Below, in pieces: positions 3,225-26,300 of a stretch of DNA of 64,000 bases. The stretch is from Camelus ferus (lineage: Eukaryota): the NCBI RefSeq assembly GCF_009834535.1, contig NC_045696.1, forward strand, positions 13,022,001 through 13,086,000, written 5' to 3'. The translations under genes were made by a program, and so were the position numbers. The notes below the pieces were generated by a model, which had not been told where the DNA came from, did no database searches, and saw nothing but the letters and a program-made list of their open reading frames with translations. How positions within the stretch are numbered: the first letter of the stretch is position 1; each line of letters opens with the position of its first letter.

Positions 3225-3500
3225 CCTTTTTTTTAATTGAAGTGTAGTCAGTTTACAATGTATTCATTTCTGGTGTACAACGTAGTGACATAGTCATACA
3301 TACATATATACATATATGTTCCTTTTCATATTATTTTTCATTATAGGCCATTACAAGGTATTGAATATGTTCCCTGTGCTATAAAGTAAGACCTTGTTTA
3401 TCTATTTTATATGCAGTAGGACCTTGTCGTTTATCTATTTTATATACAGTAGTTAGTATCTACAAATCTATTTTCTATACGGTAGTTAGTATCTACAAAT
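3225..3500 (-). mobile_element. Short L1 3'-end fragment with internal direct duplications
   Basis: ttttaattgaagtgtagtcagtttacaatg...ttgaatatgttccctgtgctat; repeated tctattttxtatacxgtagttagtatctacaaat units. Confidence 0.75.
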
Positions 3501-3637
3501 GTTTCTGGGCTCTCTAGAGGCCTGTTTTCAGTTCTGTCTTAGTGGTGAGTATTTTAATTTATATTTGCCAGTGTCACGTTTTATAAGCCTATTCCCCAAA
3601 GTTTTCTGTGAGTGAACCCTGGCCTGTGTCTTCGCAG

Positions 3638-3697
3638 GGTTGATGACACGCAGAAGCATGCTCTCTCGGACCTCCCCGGCGCCACCTGCCACGCAGA
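3638..3697 (+). other. BACH1: BACH1 5'UTR portion of the first coding exon (exon 2)
   Basis: Acceptor tgtgtcttcgcag|G at 3637/3638, 60 nt before the ATG; the sequence resembles the recalled human exon 2 start GGTTGATGA...AGAAGCATG. Confidence 0.8.
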
Positions 3698-3949
3698 ATG
3701 TCGCTGAGTGAGACCGCGGTGTTCGCGTACGAGTCCTCGGTGCACAGCGCCCACTTGCTGCTCAGCCTGGACGAGCAGCGCCGCAAGGACGTGCTGTGCG
3801 ACGTCACGGTCGTGGTGGAGGGCCGGCCCTTCCGCGCCCACCGCGCCGTGCTGGCCGCCTGCAGCGGCTACTTCCACTCCAGGCTCGCGGGCCAGGGCCA
3901 GGGCCAGGGCCAGGAGGACGCCGGGCTGCGCATCACTCTGCCCGAAGAG
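3698..3949 (+). CDS. BACH1: BACH1 coding exon 1 (N-terminal half of BTB/POZ domain), 84 codons
   Basis: [17 protein letters not shown]...[32 protein letters not shown]...ITLPEE is the BACH1 BTB N-terminus; donor GAG|GTGGGA at 3949/3950, phase 0. Confidence 0.97.
3890..3913 (+). repeat. Coding hexanucleotide repeat (GGCCAG)4
   Basis: Perfect 4 x GGCCAG encoding GQGQGQGQ. Confidence 0.98.
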
Positions 3950-4639
3950 GTGGGAGAGGGTGCCGCGATTCCAGTTCAATCTGAGTTACATCTCTTGCGG
4001 TTAATCAGTATTCTAAAGATAAAACGCGGTCTCCTTGTCATCAGGCTGAAAAGTTCCCGGGTTCTGCATCAGCACATTTCTTTAACTTTCTTCATAGGCA
4101 TGATGGGTATGATGGATTACGGGTAAAATGATTCACTTTGGATGTTAGTTAACAGTATTGATGAGCAATTGAATATCTTGACCCCTTGTTAGACTGTTTT
4201 TGATGAAATGACCCAGCCAGTGGATTACAGACATTGAAGTGGTCACACTCTGAGGGGCCACACTCTGTGCCAGCCCCTCCCTTTGGACACTTTTCCTGTG
4301 TTGGGAAACTGACTGGGGTTAGGGTTCTCCAAAGCATCCAATTCTCTAAGAGGTGCCCTCATGGAAAGTAGGTGGTCCACAAGTGTTTCCTTTCTCCCCC
4401 CTTTCTTCTTTCTGTGCAGCTCTGCATTGGTAGAAAAAAGGTGATTTTGTGTCATATTTTAGAGCCTTGTTCTTTTAAAAAAAAATTTTATTTCTATAGA
4501 GCCTTGTTCTTACACACCTTTTGAAGGCCCACCAGCCTGTTGTGGAGCTCCCACACCAGAACTTTAGGTCCTTATTATGGTCCTGCCTCCAACAAACCTC
4601 TCTCTGGGCAAGACTACTGGGTACACTGACTCAACTCTT

Positions 4640-7217: not shown

Positions 7218-8564
7218 GTGACAGTTAAAGGCTTTGAACCTTTGATTCAGTTTGCCTACACTGCGAAACTGATTTTAAGTAAGGACAATGTGGATGAAGT
7301 GTACAAGTGTGTGGAATTTTTAGGTGTACCCGATATTGAGGAATCCTGCTTTCAGTTTCTCAAATATAAGTTTTTGGACTCCACTGCAGACCAGCCAGGA
7401 TGCCCAAGAAAAAAATGCTTCTCGTCATCCTGTGAGAAAACAGATTTTAAATGTTCCCTTTTTGACCAGAGGGATTTAGAAATTGATGAGGTGGAGGAAT
7501 TCTTGGGAAATAAAAATGTTCAGACCCCTCACTGTAAACTCCGTGGGCATCAAGGCAGTGCAAAAGTGTCACCTCCTCTGCAGGACAGTGCCAGTCAAAC
7601 ATGTGAATCCATGTGCTTAGAAAAGGATGCTGCTCTGGCTTTGCCGTCTTTATGCCCCAAATACCGAAAATTCCAAAAAGCTTTCGGAACTGACAGAGTC
7701 CGTGCTGTGGAGTCCAGTGTCAAAGACGTTCAGGCTTCTTCTGTTCAGCCAAATGAGACATCTGAAAGTGATTGTCTGGGAGCAATCCAGGACTGTGCAG
7801 ATCTGCAGGTGATTTTAAAATGTGAAGACAGAAAATTAGCAATGGAACATGAAGAAACCAAGAAAAAAGATCCTGCTTCTCAGTGCCCATCAGACAAAAC
7901 AGAAGCGACTCCTTTCCCCCCGGCTTCTGCAGACCCTCATGGGCTCTATACTCTGTCTCTCTTACACACGTATGACCAGTATGGTGACTTGAATTTTGCT
8001 GGGGTGCAAAACAAGACAGTGTTAACAGAAAAGCCTTTGTCAGGTTCAGATGTTCGAGAGGAGAAAACTTTTGGTGAGAGTCAAGATTTACATCTGAAAT
8101 CTGACTCTGGCCCCAGGGAAGATAGTAGTAGCCTTGCCTCGAGTGATCTGAGCAGTGTGGAGCGAGAAGTGGCAGAACACCTAGCAAAAGGCTTCTGGAG
8201 TGACATTTGCAGCACGGACTCTCCCTGCCAAATGCAGTTATCACCTGCCGTGGCCAAAGATGGCTCAGAACAGATCTACTCCCAGAAACGGTCTGAGTGT
8301 CCCTGGTTAGGTATCAGGATCAGTGAGAGCCCAGAACCTGGTCAAAGGACTTTTACAACCTTAAGTTCTGTCAATTGCCCTTTTATAAGTACACTTAGTG
8401 CCGAAGGCTGTTCAAGCAATTTGGAAATTGGAAATGATGATTATGTTTCAGAACCTCAGCAGGAACCTTGTCCCTATGCTTGTGTGATTAGCCTGGGAGA
8501 TGACTCTGAGACGGATACCGAAGGAGACAGTGAACCCTGTTCAGCCAGAGAACAAGAATGTGAG
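7218..8564 (+). CDS. BACH1: BACH1 coding exon 2 (BTB C-terminal half plus central region with Cys-Pro heme-regulatory motifs), 449 codons
   Basis: Acceptor ttaacag|GTG; VTVKGFEPLIQFAYTAKLILSK...EREVAEHLAKGFWSDIC...ECPWLG...NCPFIS...PCPYAC...AREQECE; donor GAG|GTGAGC at 8564/8565; six CP dipeptides. Confidence 0.98.
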
Positions 8565-10063: not shown

Positions 10064-10270
10064 GTAAAACTGCCATTTAATGCGCAACGAATAATTTCAC
10101 TCTCTCGAAATGATTTTCAATCCTTGTTGAAAATGCACAAGCTAACTCCAGAACAGCTGGATTGCATCCACGATATTCGGAGAAGAAGTAAGAACAGAAT
10201 TGCTGCGCAGCGCTGTCGCAAGAGAAAACTTGACTGCATACAGAATCTGGAATCAGAAATCGAGAAGCTG
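10064..10270 (+). CDS. BACH1: BACH1 coding exon 3 (CNC domain and basic region), 69 codons
   Basis: Acceptor ctaat...caccttctag|[72 protein letters not shown]; donor CTG|GTAAGT. Confidence 0.98.
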
Positions 10271-19637: not shown

Positions 19638-19790
19638 ACGTATTTAATACATTTTTGAGTTGAGTTGACAGGAGAAAGTCCATGTGCTCTTATTTAACGA
19701 GAAGACGCCGTGGAGGTGAGTGTGTGAGCACCTGAGGGATGCTGACAGAGCTCAGAATCACAACTCACTGTGTCTCTTTCGCCCTGGCAG

Positions 19791-20201
19791 CAAAACGAAA
19801 AGGAGAGCTTGCTGAAGGAAAGGGATCACATTTTGTCAACTCTGGGCGAGACGAAGCAGAACCTGACCGGACTTTGCCAGCAAGTCTGCAAGGAAGCAGC
19901 TCTGAGTCCAGAGCAGATACAGATACTCGCCAAGTACTCGGCCTCCGACTGCCCACTTTCCTTTTTAATTTCCGAGAAAGGAAAGAGCCCTCCTGATGGG
20001 GAGCTTGCGTTGCCGTCGATTCTGAGTTTACCTGAAGGGCCTGTGGCCGCCGGGGAACCAGGCCCTCGCCTCCCCAGCGCCAAGGCCAAGGCCGACGAGG
20101 CCCCCCCGGAGCAGGCCACGCCCAGGGAGCCCTGTCGCCAGGGCGGTGGCATCTCGGATTTCTGTCAGCAGATGACCGACAAATGTACTACTGATGAGTA
20201 A
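19791..20201 (+). CDS. BACH1: BACH1 last coding exon (leucine zipper, last CP motif, C-terminal cytoplasmic localisation signal), 136 aa + stop
   Basis: Acceptor tctctttcgccctggcag|CAA; QNEKESLLKERDHILSTLGETKQNLTGLC...DCPLSFL...GISDFCQQMTDKCTTDE-TAA matches the BACH1 C-terminus. Confidence 0.97.
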   Translation, partial: QNEKESLLKERDHILSTLGETKQNLTGLCQQVCKEAALSPEQIQILAKYSASDCPLSFLISEKGKSPPDGELALPSILSLPEGPVAAGEPGPRLPSAKAKADEAPPEQATPREPCRQGGGISDFCQQMTDKCTTDE

Positions 20202-22024
20202 CCCTATGTCCGCGTCCTTCACACCAGCTCAGTTTCTACTGAAATTCGGACATTGTCTTGAAAGCCTAGGACAGCCCTTGGCTCTTAGCAGTGTTGTTTC
20301 CTCCCCTCTCCTTGCTGTTAAGGGCACCTCTCTGCAGTCCGCCCTTGACTTTTCCTCGGTTCCCGCAGGAGATGCAGAAATGACTTGCCTCCTGGATGCC
20401 AAAAAAATCACACGTGAAAATGTAGAAAAGTTTCGAAAACTCATGTTTTTAAAGAATAATAGCTATAAATAATAACTCTAGCCAGTGTTCAGAATAAACG
20501 AAAACTGCAGCGTATCCAACCACAGTTAAACAGTGTGAAGTGTCTGCAGATAGTTTCTGTGAAGGAAGCAACCCGCAAAAGTTTAATAATGCGACGCTCT
20601 CACAGTGCACTGGTTTAAAAGGAAATTTCTCGCCAGGTAACGCTGAAAGAGCTCAGGCCTGCTGAGAAGTCGGGTGTCAGCATTGGGCTTGTTTGCGTAG
20701 AACTGCGGTGTGGAAAAGATAAAGGAAACGCCTTGCCTGAGTCCTGGCGCTTTGCTCTTCAGCTCCTGCTGAAACCAGGAATGGGTCGGCCTGTGTTGTG
20801 CTCCTGGGTCCCGGAATAGTTAGGGAACAGGCAGGCGGGTGGCCTCCAGCAGGGACTTCTGTTCCTCCTCAACATTGTAAAAGAGTTCTGGCTGCGTCAG
20901 CAGTAGATAAGTGTCATTTCCCTCTTTTCTTTTTTTCTCTTCAGTCTCTTCCACATCTGGGTCCGTCATGATCTTTCTGTTTCCTGGCATTCTTGTCCCT
21001 TTGGAAGAAGAAATAGGACTCAGGGTACGGTGGCTTGAGCGCACACATTGGCAATACCGTCTTATCCCCTCCTAGAATCCTGGAGAGCTCACCAAAATAC
21101 AGGAGTGTTTGCCTGCCCAGCAGAGGTCACCCACATGAGAAAACCAGATATCACAGGAGAAAAAAATTGTCTACATTTATCAGGAGTGGCAGTTCATTTT
21201 TCATCCGTTTTTGAAGCCCTATGGTTTATTTGTAAAAATGCATTATTACTGTGCAGGTTTGTGAAATAGGATGAAGTTTGATCTTGTTCCATTGTGGGTT
21301 TAAATTTGGAAGCCAGATTTAATCTTGCTCGCTTCCCCAAATCTCGTGTATAAGGGCACACAAATCATTTTGGACTTGGGCATTTTAAAATCAGTCTTTG
21401 TGTTTATTCAGTCCTGCTTTAAAATAGTTTTTTTTTATAATCTGAGCACCTACCCTGTAACATTTTGCAGTGGTTCTTAGCCATTCCGCTGTTACCGACT
21501 TGTTTGGGAGTCAAATGAAAGCTATGGACCTCTGAACAATGCAAAAAAATTGCATATTCACAGAAACATTTGCAGAACCTAGTTTGAAAGGATACAAGGG
21601 AGTAATTTATAGTGTTTGGGTAGAAAGTACTTCATTTCACCAAGATCAAACAACCTGAGAGAGAGACTTTTCTAAATGGCGTCCTGAGTCTAGTGAAGGG
21701 CTTGTGTAGTTAATGGGGGAGCCAGCCGTCTGCCCTGCAGGAATGGGTCTAAGCAAGTCGGCCTTTCCTGGCAGAGTGTATGGGGACCAGACTCCATATT
21801 TCAGAGTAATTTGTCAAATGTTACCCTTTTTCTTGGTCAGGTGGTGTTAGGGAAGGTTGCTACTGTATTTTCAGTGGTCTGTATGTTATCTGTTATCGAC
21901 TTAGTTGTTGTAAGAGAAAACTAGTTGGGCTTGTTTATTTTCTAGAAGCTTTTATAAGTACACTCAAGAATTTGTCAGGGAGAATGATAATCCTATGATA
22001 ATGTATCCCATACTACAGAAGATT

Positions 22025-23383: not shown

Positions 23384-26300
23384 ACCACTAAATTTGTATA
23401 TCCATATCCGATTAAGATCATGTTTCATTAAAAGTGAACTTTCATAGTATTTAATTTACACTTTCTTCTTAATGTGCTTATCCAAATGTAGCAAAACTAG
23501 AAATGTTAGATGCTCAATAAAACTCTCTGAAATTGCTTCTGATTGAATAGAGTTGTGCATTCCACTTCCAGTTTTTCACCACTCATATGACTTTGCTAAC
23601 TTGAGCCTTTTGATAAGTAGGCAAGTATGACTGTGGCGTTTGTATGAGGAAATCTTTGATGAGTTCATTATCACGCCTGAAAAAAGAAGTTCCCAGCAGT
23701 CAGGTATTGAAGGAAGCACAGATTTTAGCCTTGCTTCGGATTTAATTTTAGTCTTTAGGTAGTGCTGTAGGGTTTTTAAAGGAATATTGTCTCTTTCAGT
23801 CCCTAATTTTTAAAAATTTACCTGAGTCAGTTCTGTCATTCAGCTTCTAAGCAGGCTCTTGTAATCAGGCTTCCAGCAGCGGCTCAGGCTAGTGGCAGTC
23901 CAGATCAGGGTCTTCTGGCCTCGTGTTGTCTCAGTTGGGGGCGATCTTGCCTTTTGTGTGGAGGCTTATTTTGGCCTTCTGCGTTGCTCCTTTCTGGGGG
24001 AGAGGCCCGTATTTACATCTCCCCTTCCCACAGGGTATTCCTTGCCTCCAGGCCAAATTGAGCAAGGGCTCCCTCTAGGGGCTTCGAGGCTACACTCCTG
24101 TGTGAACAGGCGTTTTCAGGCATGAGCCTCACTGAAGGGTAGGCTGCCCCTTGCAAAGCAATGGTGAGGCCTAAGAAGACTGTCCCCTGGGGATATTTTT
24201 CCCTTTACGTGGACTTAAGCAATCCAGAGGCAATGAAAGACAGGCATGGATCCAAGGCTAGTCCCTCGCCATTCCCTCCCTGGGCCTGCGTGCCAGAGAA
24301 TTTCAGGCAGTGAGAGTAGGTTGGTGACACTGGCCTGGCACCATCCGTTAAAAGCTAGAGCCTTACTGGCACTCTAGTGTGTGGGACCCAGCTGCTCTGA
24401 AGGAAGCAGCACGTAGTCGTCCCAACTCTGCCTAAAAGCCCTGTGAAGTCGTTTTCCTTGGAAACTGCAGCGGCGGTGCCGTGAGGCTGCCTGCCCGGGT
24501 TCAAGGCCGGCTCCTGGGGGCCTTGGCTTGTAAGGCTGCAGAGCTGTTAGTGTTTCAGACACCCGCAGGCCTGCTGCCTGCAAGTTAGTTTATGCCACGT
24601 GGTACCCATCTTCTAAGGCTCTTGCAGTCCATCATGGTGTGTGTAGGGGGTGAGCTGTGCGGGCAGTATTTCTGCCGATTGAGTTTAAGTTCCTAGTCAG
24701 TCGGTTCTAGCAAGCGGGCATTGACAGGCATCAGGGGAAACTGATGTGAGGAATCCCTCCATGCCCCTGAGTGTCCACCACAGCCTTTGGGGACACGAGG
24801 TACTGTCTTCTGCGATAACTGCTCTGACGGCTCGCTTTAAGACCAGGTGGCACGAATGCTGTGACAGTCCTGCTTGCGTTTCTGTTAACTCGGAGTCATT
24901 AGATTCTTGGTGTGGGGCCAGTACAACTTCTGAGTCTCGGAAGGAATGATGTTATTCCAGTGAAAGGCAACCCACACGTCTGCTGAGGTCCTAGCGCCCG
25001 ATGCTTCCGTATGTCCGCTCAGCCTATTCAAGGCCCCGAAGAGGGCATTTGGGACTTCACAGAAAGTCTCATTTTGTGAGAAGAATACCATATGCTACAG
25101 TGACCTTCCAGATTCAGAATGCTCACAGGCTGGTCTGAAACCTCTCACCCAGGCCACCTGCACGTCAGTGCTGTGAAAACCCACTGGGCCGAGCACAAGC
25201 CTCCGCACACCACAAGGTGAAATCCGCCACCTCCGCCATGGGCCATGCCTCCGCTATGGGCCGCGCCTCCACAAGGTTCCAGATCACACGTGTGTTTTAC
25301 TACCCAAATTCTGTTCTTCTGATTTTGATTTCTCAGTATCTCCAAACACTGCCCTGCCCCACTACAATCTTGGGTTTCTAGAGGAGCATGTCATAGTCCC
25401 TTCCTGAGTTGTGAACAATTAGAGAAAGGAAAAGGAACGGTCAATGGAAAACCAAAATAAAACCTCAATAAAGAGTAGTTGAAGGAGTAACTTGGAGAGA
25501 GAGCCTGGTGTGAACTCCAGAGTGAGGCAAGTTTACATGATCAGTTTGTTTCCTGTGAAAGGGAGATACCTTCCCCCCACTCCTGGTTTCTGTGAAGAGA
25601 GATTTTCCTCGAAGCAGCACAGCACCACCTGTACTGACTCCTCTCTGATGAGCAAGGGGGTATGGAGGGGTGAGGCACAATGGTGCTATTTGGAGACAGG
25701 TGTGTCCCAAGGGGAAGAAGGACCATGCAGAGTGGAGGACAGCCAGTTATTTCCCCCAACTTTATCAATCAGCTAGGTCATTCCACCTCTCTAGGGACAG
25801 AGTGAGTAAAGAGGTTAAGGGAAGATCTTCTCCCAGCAGCCGGAGCGTAGGAGGTTAAGGGAAAAATATGGAGAGGAATCATGGGGAGGCAGTGGGCCTA
25901 AGGGCTTTTGGAAAGTTTACAAGAAGGGAAACAGCCAGGGATTTAAAAGAGGGGCAGGCCACGCTGAGAGTCATGAACTCGTCCCCCAGACTCCAGCCTC
26001 CCTTTCGCCCCTAGTGGGAACATAGGTTCAGGTTTGAAAACAAAGTATTACCTTGGGCTTAAGTCCAAACACTTCTTTTTCTTCTCCCTCACTTCTGTTA
26101 TCTACACTGTTCAGAAGTTTAAACAAGATAATGGGAAAGATTTTAAAAATCGATTACAGCATATTCCTTTTCCATTTAAAAATAACTGTCTTTTCAGCAG
26201 ACAGTTTTCCTTCTCCCCATCTTAGCTGACATTTTGTCACTGTTCAGAAAGCCAGCTGTTTCCTAAACAGTAAATTTCCTTCTTGCAGGAGACTGGACCT

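What the first reader, a model, noticed from the sequence alone, without database searches (positions are those of the whole stretch)
3638..3970. First coding exon of BACH1 is a sharply bounded GC/CpG island with accelerated protein change (candidate GC-biased gene conversion hotspot)
Seen: 81 of 84 codons end in G/C (only AGT, ACT and GAA do not) and CpGs are dense, while both flanking introns are AT-rich. Only 14 of the first 30 codons of the next exon end in G/C. Against the human protein as I recall it, about 20 of 78 BTB residues differ, many toward GC-rich codons (S7A, T18A, K29R, Q43R, R44P, S50A, S57G, V64A, N72R), whereas the CNC/basic exon appears identical. The 5'UTR part is GC-shifted too, so this is not only codon selection. 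Inference: local gBGC rewrote a normally conserved domain and created an intragenic CpG island that might act as a promoter or methylation target.
Basis: partly seen in the sequence, partly recalled or inferred. Interest (0 to 1): 0.7.

Follow-up and report, generated by a model that had tools for sequence, protein, structure and literature searches.

The report
GC-rewritten BACH1 exon in even-toed ungulates
One exon of the stress-response gene BACH1 in a camel is almost pure G/C at silent sites, and its protein changes are shared with pigs, whales and cattle, which looks like a known recombination bias acting since their common ancestor rather than a camel adaptation.

Summary
Confirmed. The window is camelid BACH1; its protein is identical to the Camelus ferus record. 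The first coding exon (3638-3949) has G/C at 81 of 84 third positions and 35 CpGs, in a 351-bp island that ends within about 20 bp of both splice sites. The protein change is not camel-specific. At 11 exon sites all 21 pigs, whales, ruminants and camelids differ from 18 other mammals, and the stem branch is five times longer for this exon than for the protein beyond the BTB domain. Distinct changes run 26 GC-gaining to 2 GC-losing, against 31:34 in the same exon of five other groups. Bats whose whole gene drifts toward GC repeat the same changes. Best reading (0.65): an exon-specific, long-lasting episode of GC-biased gene conversion, a described kind of event. Against it: the flanks stay AT-rich, and three changes near the FBXO22 degron lie in the next exon. 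No DNA of another species could be obtained, so silent-site direction, methylation and promoter activity are untested. The scan noted similar exons before on other DNA (RYR2, LYST). In passing: 20 of 24 cetartiodactyls lack the nitric-oxide-sensing Cys107.

The parts
3617..3967 (.). GC-rich segment, 351 bp, 70% GC; overhangs the exon by about 20 bp on each side
   Evidence: two-changepoint fit; support 3605-3621 and 3964-3977
3633..4058 (.). CpG-rich segment, reaching about 110 bp into the downstream intron
   Evidence: changepoint fit on CpG, right end supported 4028-4132; CpG list
3638..3697 (+). 5'UTR part of the first coding exon, after the acceptor ending at 3637; 65% GC, 5 CpG
   Evidence: sequence, composition; acceptor read from the sequence, no transcript seen
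3698..3949 (+). Coding part of the exon, 84 codons, N-terminal half of the BTB domain; GC3 81 of 84
   Evidence: protein identical to C. ferus P0001
3889..3914 (+). 6-bp tandem repeat (4.3 copies) giving a camelid Gly-Gln insertion; copy number differs among camelid records
7218..8564 (+). Exon 3 (449 codons, GC3 40%). Its first 50 codons are the second half of the BTB domain and serve as within-domain control; they carry Y107 (7302), P116 (7329), Y128 (7365) in human numbering
10064..10270 (+). Exon 4, CNC/basic region; GC3 30 of 69; 0 of 69 differences from human
19791..20201 (+). Exon 5 coding part; GC3 90 of 137; lies in a second, weaker CpG island (19671-20290)

Best explanation
A local, exon-specific and long-lasting episode of GC-biased gene conversion (gBGC). 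SHOWN: silent sites of this exon are nearly saturated with G/C in the camel; its amino acids changed fast and almost only toward GC-richer codons; most changes are shared by all cetartiodactyls sampled, with more in ruminants and camelids; the BTB core and degron strand stayed fixed. INFERRED: meiotic recombination was concentrated on about 350 bp here from the cetartiodactyl stem onward; repair favoured G/C alleles strongly enough (B about 4 if at equilibrium) to fix all silent and many mildly deleterious replacement changes, while purifying selection held the core. INFERRED, weaker: the exon is unmethylated in the germline, which keeps its CpGs and may have held recombination in place (PRDM9-independent hotspot); three changes in the exon-3 half of the domain on the same branch may be compensatory.
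For: GC3 81 of 84, GC4 47 of 48, and C at 27 of 28 pyrimidine third positions not followed by G, so not a CpG effect alone. Against residues shared by rhino and lemur, camel differs at 16 of 75 exon sites, 2 of 47 in the other BTB half (P 0.009) and 23 of 354 in the rest of exon 3 (P 0.0002); by its actual codons 12 changes gain GC and 1 loses it. Distinct changes in 21 cetartiodactyls: 26:2 in this exon, 76:34 in the protein beyond the BTB domain (P 0.009), 31:34 in this exon in five other groups (P 2e-5). Stem branch 0.153 against 0.031. Bats with a gene-wide GC push (Phyllostomus 88:1, Pipistrellus 47:8 in the rest of exon 3) share 4-9 of 18 cetartiodactyl states, while equally divergent cricetids and marsupials share 0-2; rho 0.45, partial 0.37, n 48, not corrected for phylogeny, states picked by me after seeing the alignment. 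PMC12290510 (passages) reports exon-specific episodes with equilibrium GC3 about 94% and compensation in other exons during episodes.
Against: The GC footprint stops within about 20 bp of the splice sites: 40% GC at 3501-3597 and 43% at 3970-4069; a conversion hotspot should also raise neutral intron flanks. No other species' DNA was obtained, so silent W>S counts per branch are missing and direction rests on amino acids. The rest of the protein also shows a 2:1 GC-gaining excess by this method. Two of the 16 camel changes border the insertion and depend on the alignment. C107Y, H116P and F128Y in exon 3 are not GC-directed as a set and exceed a rough expectation (P 0.04). The two exon differences between wild camel and alpaca records (V20L; Gly/Cys in the repeat) both read as GC losses, so the push may have stopped in camelids. 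No recombination or methylation data were seen.
Confidence: 0.65

Rival explanations
1. Selection on the DNA or RNA of the exon (an exonic CpG-island promoter or enhancer, exon definition, or mRNA export) favours G/C, and amino-acid changes follow.
For: Footprint matches the exon within about 20 bp; the UTR part is GC-rich; CpGs are retained. PMC11865589 (passages) notes that GC4 far above neighbouring sequence may suggest selection.
Against: Needs selection on nearly every silent site strong enough to carry 11 or more replacement changes; non-CpG sites are equally saturated (27 of 28); the same replacements recur where the whole gene drifts toward GC.
Confidence: 0.13
2. Positive selection or relaxed constraint on the BACH1 BTB domain in early cetartiodactyls (changed dealings with FBXO22, FBXL17 or NCOR1); the GC content is a separate matter.
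For: The exon-3 half of the domain also changed on the stem (branch 0.068 against 0.031): C107Y, H116P/S, F128Y, of which C107 and F128 are named at the FBXO22 degron in 10.1101/2024.06.03.594717 (passages). N19H and S57A/G hit near-invariant sites.
Against: Does not explain 81 of 84 silent sites or the 26:2 direction. F9, Y11, E12, S13, C34, A53, C55, C109, C122 and F125 are unchanged in 21 of 21. Y107 and Y128 also occur in 7 and 4 of 53 other mammals.
Confidence: 0.12
3. Loss of germline methylation alone: CpG decay stopped and the island built up by mutation.
For: 18 of 19 possible third-position CpGs are present, against 6 of 71 in exon 3; CpG enrichment extends into the intron.
Against: Cannot give 27 of 28 C at non-CpG sites (84 of 166 in exon 3), nor faster protein change.
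Confidence: 0.06
4. Ectopic conversion of the exon from a GC-rich paralogue or retrocopy, which would end at exon borders.
For: Exon-bounded footprint.
Against: Changes accumulate on several branches (stem, camelid, pecoran); the peptide scores 111 bits to BACH1 against 78 to BACH2; the frame and core are intact. No genome was held to look for a donor.
Confidence: 0.04

Closest known systems
[quoted passage not shown]
   Same: One exon of a gene, GC3 near the reported equilibrium of about 94%, excess of GC-gaining replacements, other exons unaffected, possible compensation in another exon on the same branch; fits their '2-branch' class (one exon, also downstream lineages).
   Different: They call episodes from silent substitutions, which I could not count. 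Their episodes lie on short branches of a roughly 10-million-year radiation; this one is shared by a whole order. BACH1 has 0 occurrences in their main text.
PRDM9-independent hotspots at hypomethylated CpG islands (PMC11161765; passages and section 8)
   Same: A CpG-rich, probably unmethylated site with a GC signature that seems to outlast a short-lived hotspot.
   Different: Those sites are promoter-like; this is an internal exon, and its GC peak is only about 350 bp. The paper lists some cetaceans among species with a deficit of such recombination. Neither methylation nor recombination was measured here.
Intron barrier effect on GC content in rice and Arabidopsis (PMC4684703; passages)
   Same: Step changes of GC at exon-intron borders, with the proposal that introns limit recombination or conversion tracts.
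   Different: A plant, genome-wide statistical pattern for outer gene regions; not shown there for a single mammalian exon.
BACH1 BTB domain, human and mouse (PDB 2IHC, 2Z8H, 8UA3)
   Same: Orthologous domain; degron strand and core residues kept.
   Different: 20 of 78 residues differ in this exon, plus a 6-residue insertion; Cys107 is Tyr.

Membership tests
BACH1 orthologue | BTB plus CNC-bZIP protein matching BACH1 records | tested here: met
   0 differences from C. ferus P0001 over 738 aa; best PDB hits are BACH1
Exon-specific gBGC episode | Very high GC at silent sites of one exon but not its neighbours | tested here: met
   81 of 84 against 180 of 449 and 30 of 69
Exon-specific gBGC episode | Excess of GC-gaining replacements and faster protein change on particular branches | tested here: met
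   26:2 against 76:34 and 31:34; stem 0.153 against 0.031; direction inferred from amino acids
Exon-specific gBGC episode | Cluster of silent W>S substitutions on the branch | not testable with these tools
   no orthologous DNA found
Exon-specific gBGC episode | Bias also in adjacent non-coding DNA | tested here: inconclusive
   UTR part 65-74% GC and first 20 intron bases 70%, but 40-43% beyond; no alignment to polarise
Exon-specific gBGC episode | High local recombination or W>S-skewed polymorphism | not testable with these tools
   0 reads laid from 2 runs
CpG island | At least 200 bp, GC at least 50%, CpG o/e at least 0.6 (criteria recalled) | tested here: met
   exon 312 bp, 70%, 0.91; merged windows 3521-4100, 58%, 0.89
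CpG island | Unmethylated, promoter-like chromatin | not testable with these tools
   no bisulfite, ChIP or CAGE data seen; CpG retention is indirect
PRDM9-independent hotspot | Germline hypomethylation and breaks independent of PRDM9 | not testable with these tools
   only indirect: changes on stem, camelid and pecoran branches

The most novel reading that the evidence does not exclude
An internal exon became its own lasting recombination hotspot in the ancestor of camels, pigs, whales and cattle (CpG gain, loss of methylation, more breaks, more GC), with conversion that stops at the splice sites. It forced about a dozen replacements into the BACH1 BTB dimer and drew compensations in the next exon (C107Y, H116P, F128Y), so that most livestock and whales now have a BACH1 without one of its two nitric-oxide-sensing cysteines and with changed routing between FBXO22 and FBXL17: a functional change in a redox regulator started by a neutral process.
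Probability: 0.15. Interest if true: 0.65.

Novelty: new member of a known kind. Interest (0 to 1): 0.38.

Why it matters
It warns that BACH1 would look positively selected in livestock and whales for a non-adaptive reason. It is an unusually clean case: one folded domain split over two exons, only one of them GC-driven, with natural replicates in bats. It poses one sharp question, why the GC footprint ends at the splice sites. Pig, cattle, sheep and camel BACH1 differ from human at many BTB surface positions, and most lack Cys107, which may matter when they are used as models of oxidative stress. I found no paper on this: BACH1 + 'biased gene conversion' 0 papers; BACH1 + CpG island + exon 2 + cattle 0; two further searches listed only papers whose titles and abstract openings are on other subjects. 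The library lacks most subscription papers.

Tried and rejected
DNA of other mammals: metagenome scans by protein (598 candidates, 0 confirmed) and by pattern (7 loci, none BACH1 on translation); genome contigs (0 of 600); viral contigs (3 of 67, short weak matches, not examined further). A run search restricted to Hi-C, meant to reach other species, listed 2 runs of the same species label, none shown to hold the stretch; 0 reads were laid, so no test. No genome is held. Assembly artefact is rejected for the protein (same changes in dromedary, Bactrian camel and alpaca records), but the silent-site GC was seen in this one sequence only. A camel-specific event is rejected. The sigma-70 scan does not apply to a mammal and was not used. 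The per-gene spreadsheet of PMC6636035 was too large to read and 3 of its 9 held files were not searched; it may hold whole-gene GC for BACH1 across vertebrates. bioRxiv supplements of the two structure papers were not seen and may list further interface residues. No fold or complex prediction was run, since solved BACH1 structures would dominate the result. Rows left out: a second alpaca record and a short Bactrian isoform, and beluga, porpoise, Pontoporia, meerkat and loris (short isoforms or poorly aligned ends). Hippo, giraffe and chevrotain were not among the named records listed; horse and cat were viewed but not counted.

Full report
IDENTITY. The window holds four coding exons of BACH1: 3698-3949, 7218-8564, 10064-10270 and 19791-20201. 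The exon-3 peptide is 100% identical to a Camelus ferus record and the 738-residue protein has no difference from it. No upstream CpG island lies in the 3.5 kb before the exon, so the main promoter is probably outside the window and this is an internal exon (inference).

OBSERVATION. 81 of 84 codons end in G/C, 47 of 48 four-fold sites are G/C, and 6 of 7 Arg and 9 of 10 Leu codons start with C. Exons 3, 4 and 5 have 180 of 449, 30 of 69 and 90 of 137. Saturation is not a CpG effect: third-position pyrimidines are C at 18 of 19 sites before G and 27 of 28 elsewhere, against 6 of 71 and 84 of 166 in exon 3. The GC-rich segment is 3617-3967, the exon plus about 20 bp each side; CpG enrichment reaches about 4058. 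Part of the upstream AT-rich flank (3230-3419) is an interspersed repeat with four other matches in the window, but the nearer flank 3501-3597 is also only 40% GC. If GC3 is at equilibrium and mutation favours AT by 1.5 to 2.5 times (assumed), the fixation bias B is about 4 (range 2.6-5.8).

WHO SHARES THE PROTEIN CHANGES. I aligned 79 named records and kept 77, then 72, as listed under Tried and rejected. Camel differs from human at 20 of 78 residues in this exon, 6 of 50 in the exon-3 half of the BTB domain, 53 of 394 in the rest of exon 3 and 0 of 69 in exon 4. Human differs from rhino at 5 of 78 and from zebu at 27 of 78. At 11 exon sites (18, 19, 25, 26, 29, 44, 50, 57, 63, 64, 72) none of 21 cetartiodactyls has a residue found in 18 carnivores, pangolins, rhinos, primates and others; the other 658 positions give 7 such sites. 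On a fixed species tree that I wrote from recalled phylogeny, the cetartiodactyl stem is 0.153 for this exon, 0.068 for the other BTB half and 0.031 for the rest; the pecoran stem is 0.133 against 0.071 and the camelid stem 0.077 against 0.062. The exon-to-rest ratio is 1.9-2.8 in the 8 cetartiodactyls printed and 0.16-1.45 in the 23 others printed. So the event is order-wide and began on the stem.

DIRECTION. Changes were polarised against the residue shared by rhino and lemur. Camel differs at 16 of 75 sites; with its actual codons 12 gain GC, 1 loses, 2 are neutral and 1 is ambiguous; the rest of exon 3 gives 9:3 among 23 of 354. Distinct changes across 21 cetartiodactyls are 26:2 in the exon (of 42; 8 neutral, 6 ambiguous) and 76:34 beyond the BTB domain (P 0.009). 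The same exon in Ferae, primates, rodents other than the pocket gopher, eulipotyphlans and atlantogenatans gives 31:34 (P 2e-5); bats give 28:4. Residues G, A, R, P rise from 14-15 in rhino, dog, human and wood mouse to 22-30.

NATURAL REPLICATES. In several bats and the pocket gopher the rest of exon 3 is itself strongly GC-directed (Phyllostomus 88:1, Sturnira 59:6, Pipistrellus 47:8, Thomomys 81:11). These species carry 4-9 of 18 cetartiodactyl states in the first exon, while cricetids and marsupials of similar divergence carry 0-2 (rho 0.45; 0.37 after allowing for divergence; 48 species; no phylogenetic correction; states chosen after seeing the data). This suggests the changes are what GC pressure does to this exon, not a design peculiar to ungulates (inference). 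Exceptions: jerboa has 4 with a moderate bias, and mouse lemur has 0 with a 5:1 bias on few changes.

WHAT STAYED FIXED. Of 24 exon sites invariant in 53 other mammals only L22 changed (R in 17 of 24, not in camelids or pigs); N19H and S57A/G hit near-invariant sites. Two preprints define the FBXO22 degron: F9, Y11, C122, F125 as core with E12 and F128 peripheral, C107 and C122 as nitric-oxide sensors, and NCOR1 competing for the same site (10.1101/2024.06.03.594717, passages and section 7; 10.1101/2024.06.03.596960, abstract and sections 6 and 10). F9, Y11, E12, S13, C122 and F125 are kept in 21 of 21. But F128 is Tyr and H116 is Pro or Ser in all, and C107 is Tyr in 20 of 24 (Cys in pig, warthog, peccary, oryx). 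These lie in AT-richer exon 3. They may be compensations or a sign of selection on the domain; Y107 also occurs in 7 of 53 other mammals, so the site is labile.

MECHANISM. The pattern matches exon-specific gBGC episodes, for which PMC12290510 reports equilibrium GC3 near 94%, a class that continues into descendant branches, and compensation in other exons during the episode (passages). PMC11161765 shows that hypomethylated islands act as relatively stable hotspots in many mammals with PRDM9, though some cetaceans show a deficit (passages and section 8). I put gBGC at 0.65. The main unexplained point is the sharp edge: neutral flanks beyond 20 bp are not enriched. Possible reasons are turnover of intron sequence by insertions (noted in PMC11865589, passages), an intron barrier as proposed in plants (PMC4684703, passages), or selection on the exon itself. 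The two exon differences between wild camel and alpaca both read as GC losses, so the bias may no longer act in camelids.

LIMITS. All cross-species evidence is from proteins. Attempts to obtain orthologous DNA or reads failed. Silent substitutions per branch, the state of the exon in horse, dog or human, methylation and promoter activity are untested.

VERDICT. Earlier notes of this scan describe similar exons in RYR2 and in a camelid LYST (unchecked), so such exons are not rare. Interest 0.38.

Noticed in passing
window 7302-7304: Cys107, a reported nitric-oxide and alkylation sensor of human BACH1, is Tyr here and in 20 of 24 cetartiodactyls (Cys in pigs, peccary and oryx); also Tyr in 7, Arg in 3 and Ser in 1 of 53 other mammals.
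   Followed up: partly
P0111, P0112, P0091, P0090, P0087, P0117: Gene-wide GC-directed protein change in BACH1 of Phyllostomus (88:1, a third of sites in the rest of exon 3), Sturnira, Pipistrellus, Pteronotus and the pocket gopher Thomomys (81:11); the locus seems repeatedly hit.
   Followed up: partly
window 3889-3914: Gly-Gln repeat length differs among camelid records: wild camel longest, dromedary and Bactrian one unit fewer, alpaca with a Cys in the repeat, an unnamed Logan record shorter still.
   Followed up: partly
window 3643-3711: Two upstream ATGs (3643, 3658) open an out-of-frame 22-codon reading frame that stops just after the BACH1 start; a possible overlapping uORF. Conservation not checked.
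   Followed up: no
window 19671-20290: Second, weaker CpG island over the last coding exon (56% GC, o/e 0.63; 18 of 20 codons end in G/C at codons 101-120), in a poorly conserved part of the protein.
   Followed up: no
P0147, P0144, P0146, P0149: Pecoran ruminants carry more radical GC-directed changes in this exon (S17G, L22R, D68G, L71P, E77G) plus V32E, which recurs in two bats.
   Followed up: partly
window 24701-25380 and 20561-20830: Further short stretches that pass simple CpG-island thresholds downstream of the coding region.
   Followed up: no
L008-L010: Short weak matches to the exon peptide in three viral contigs; probably unrelated BTB domains.
   Followed up: no
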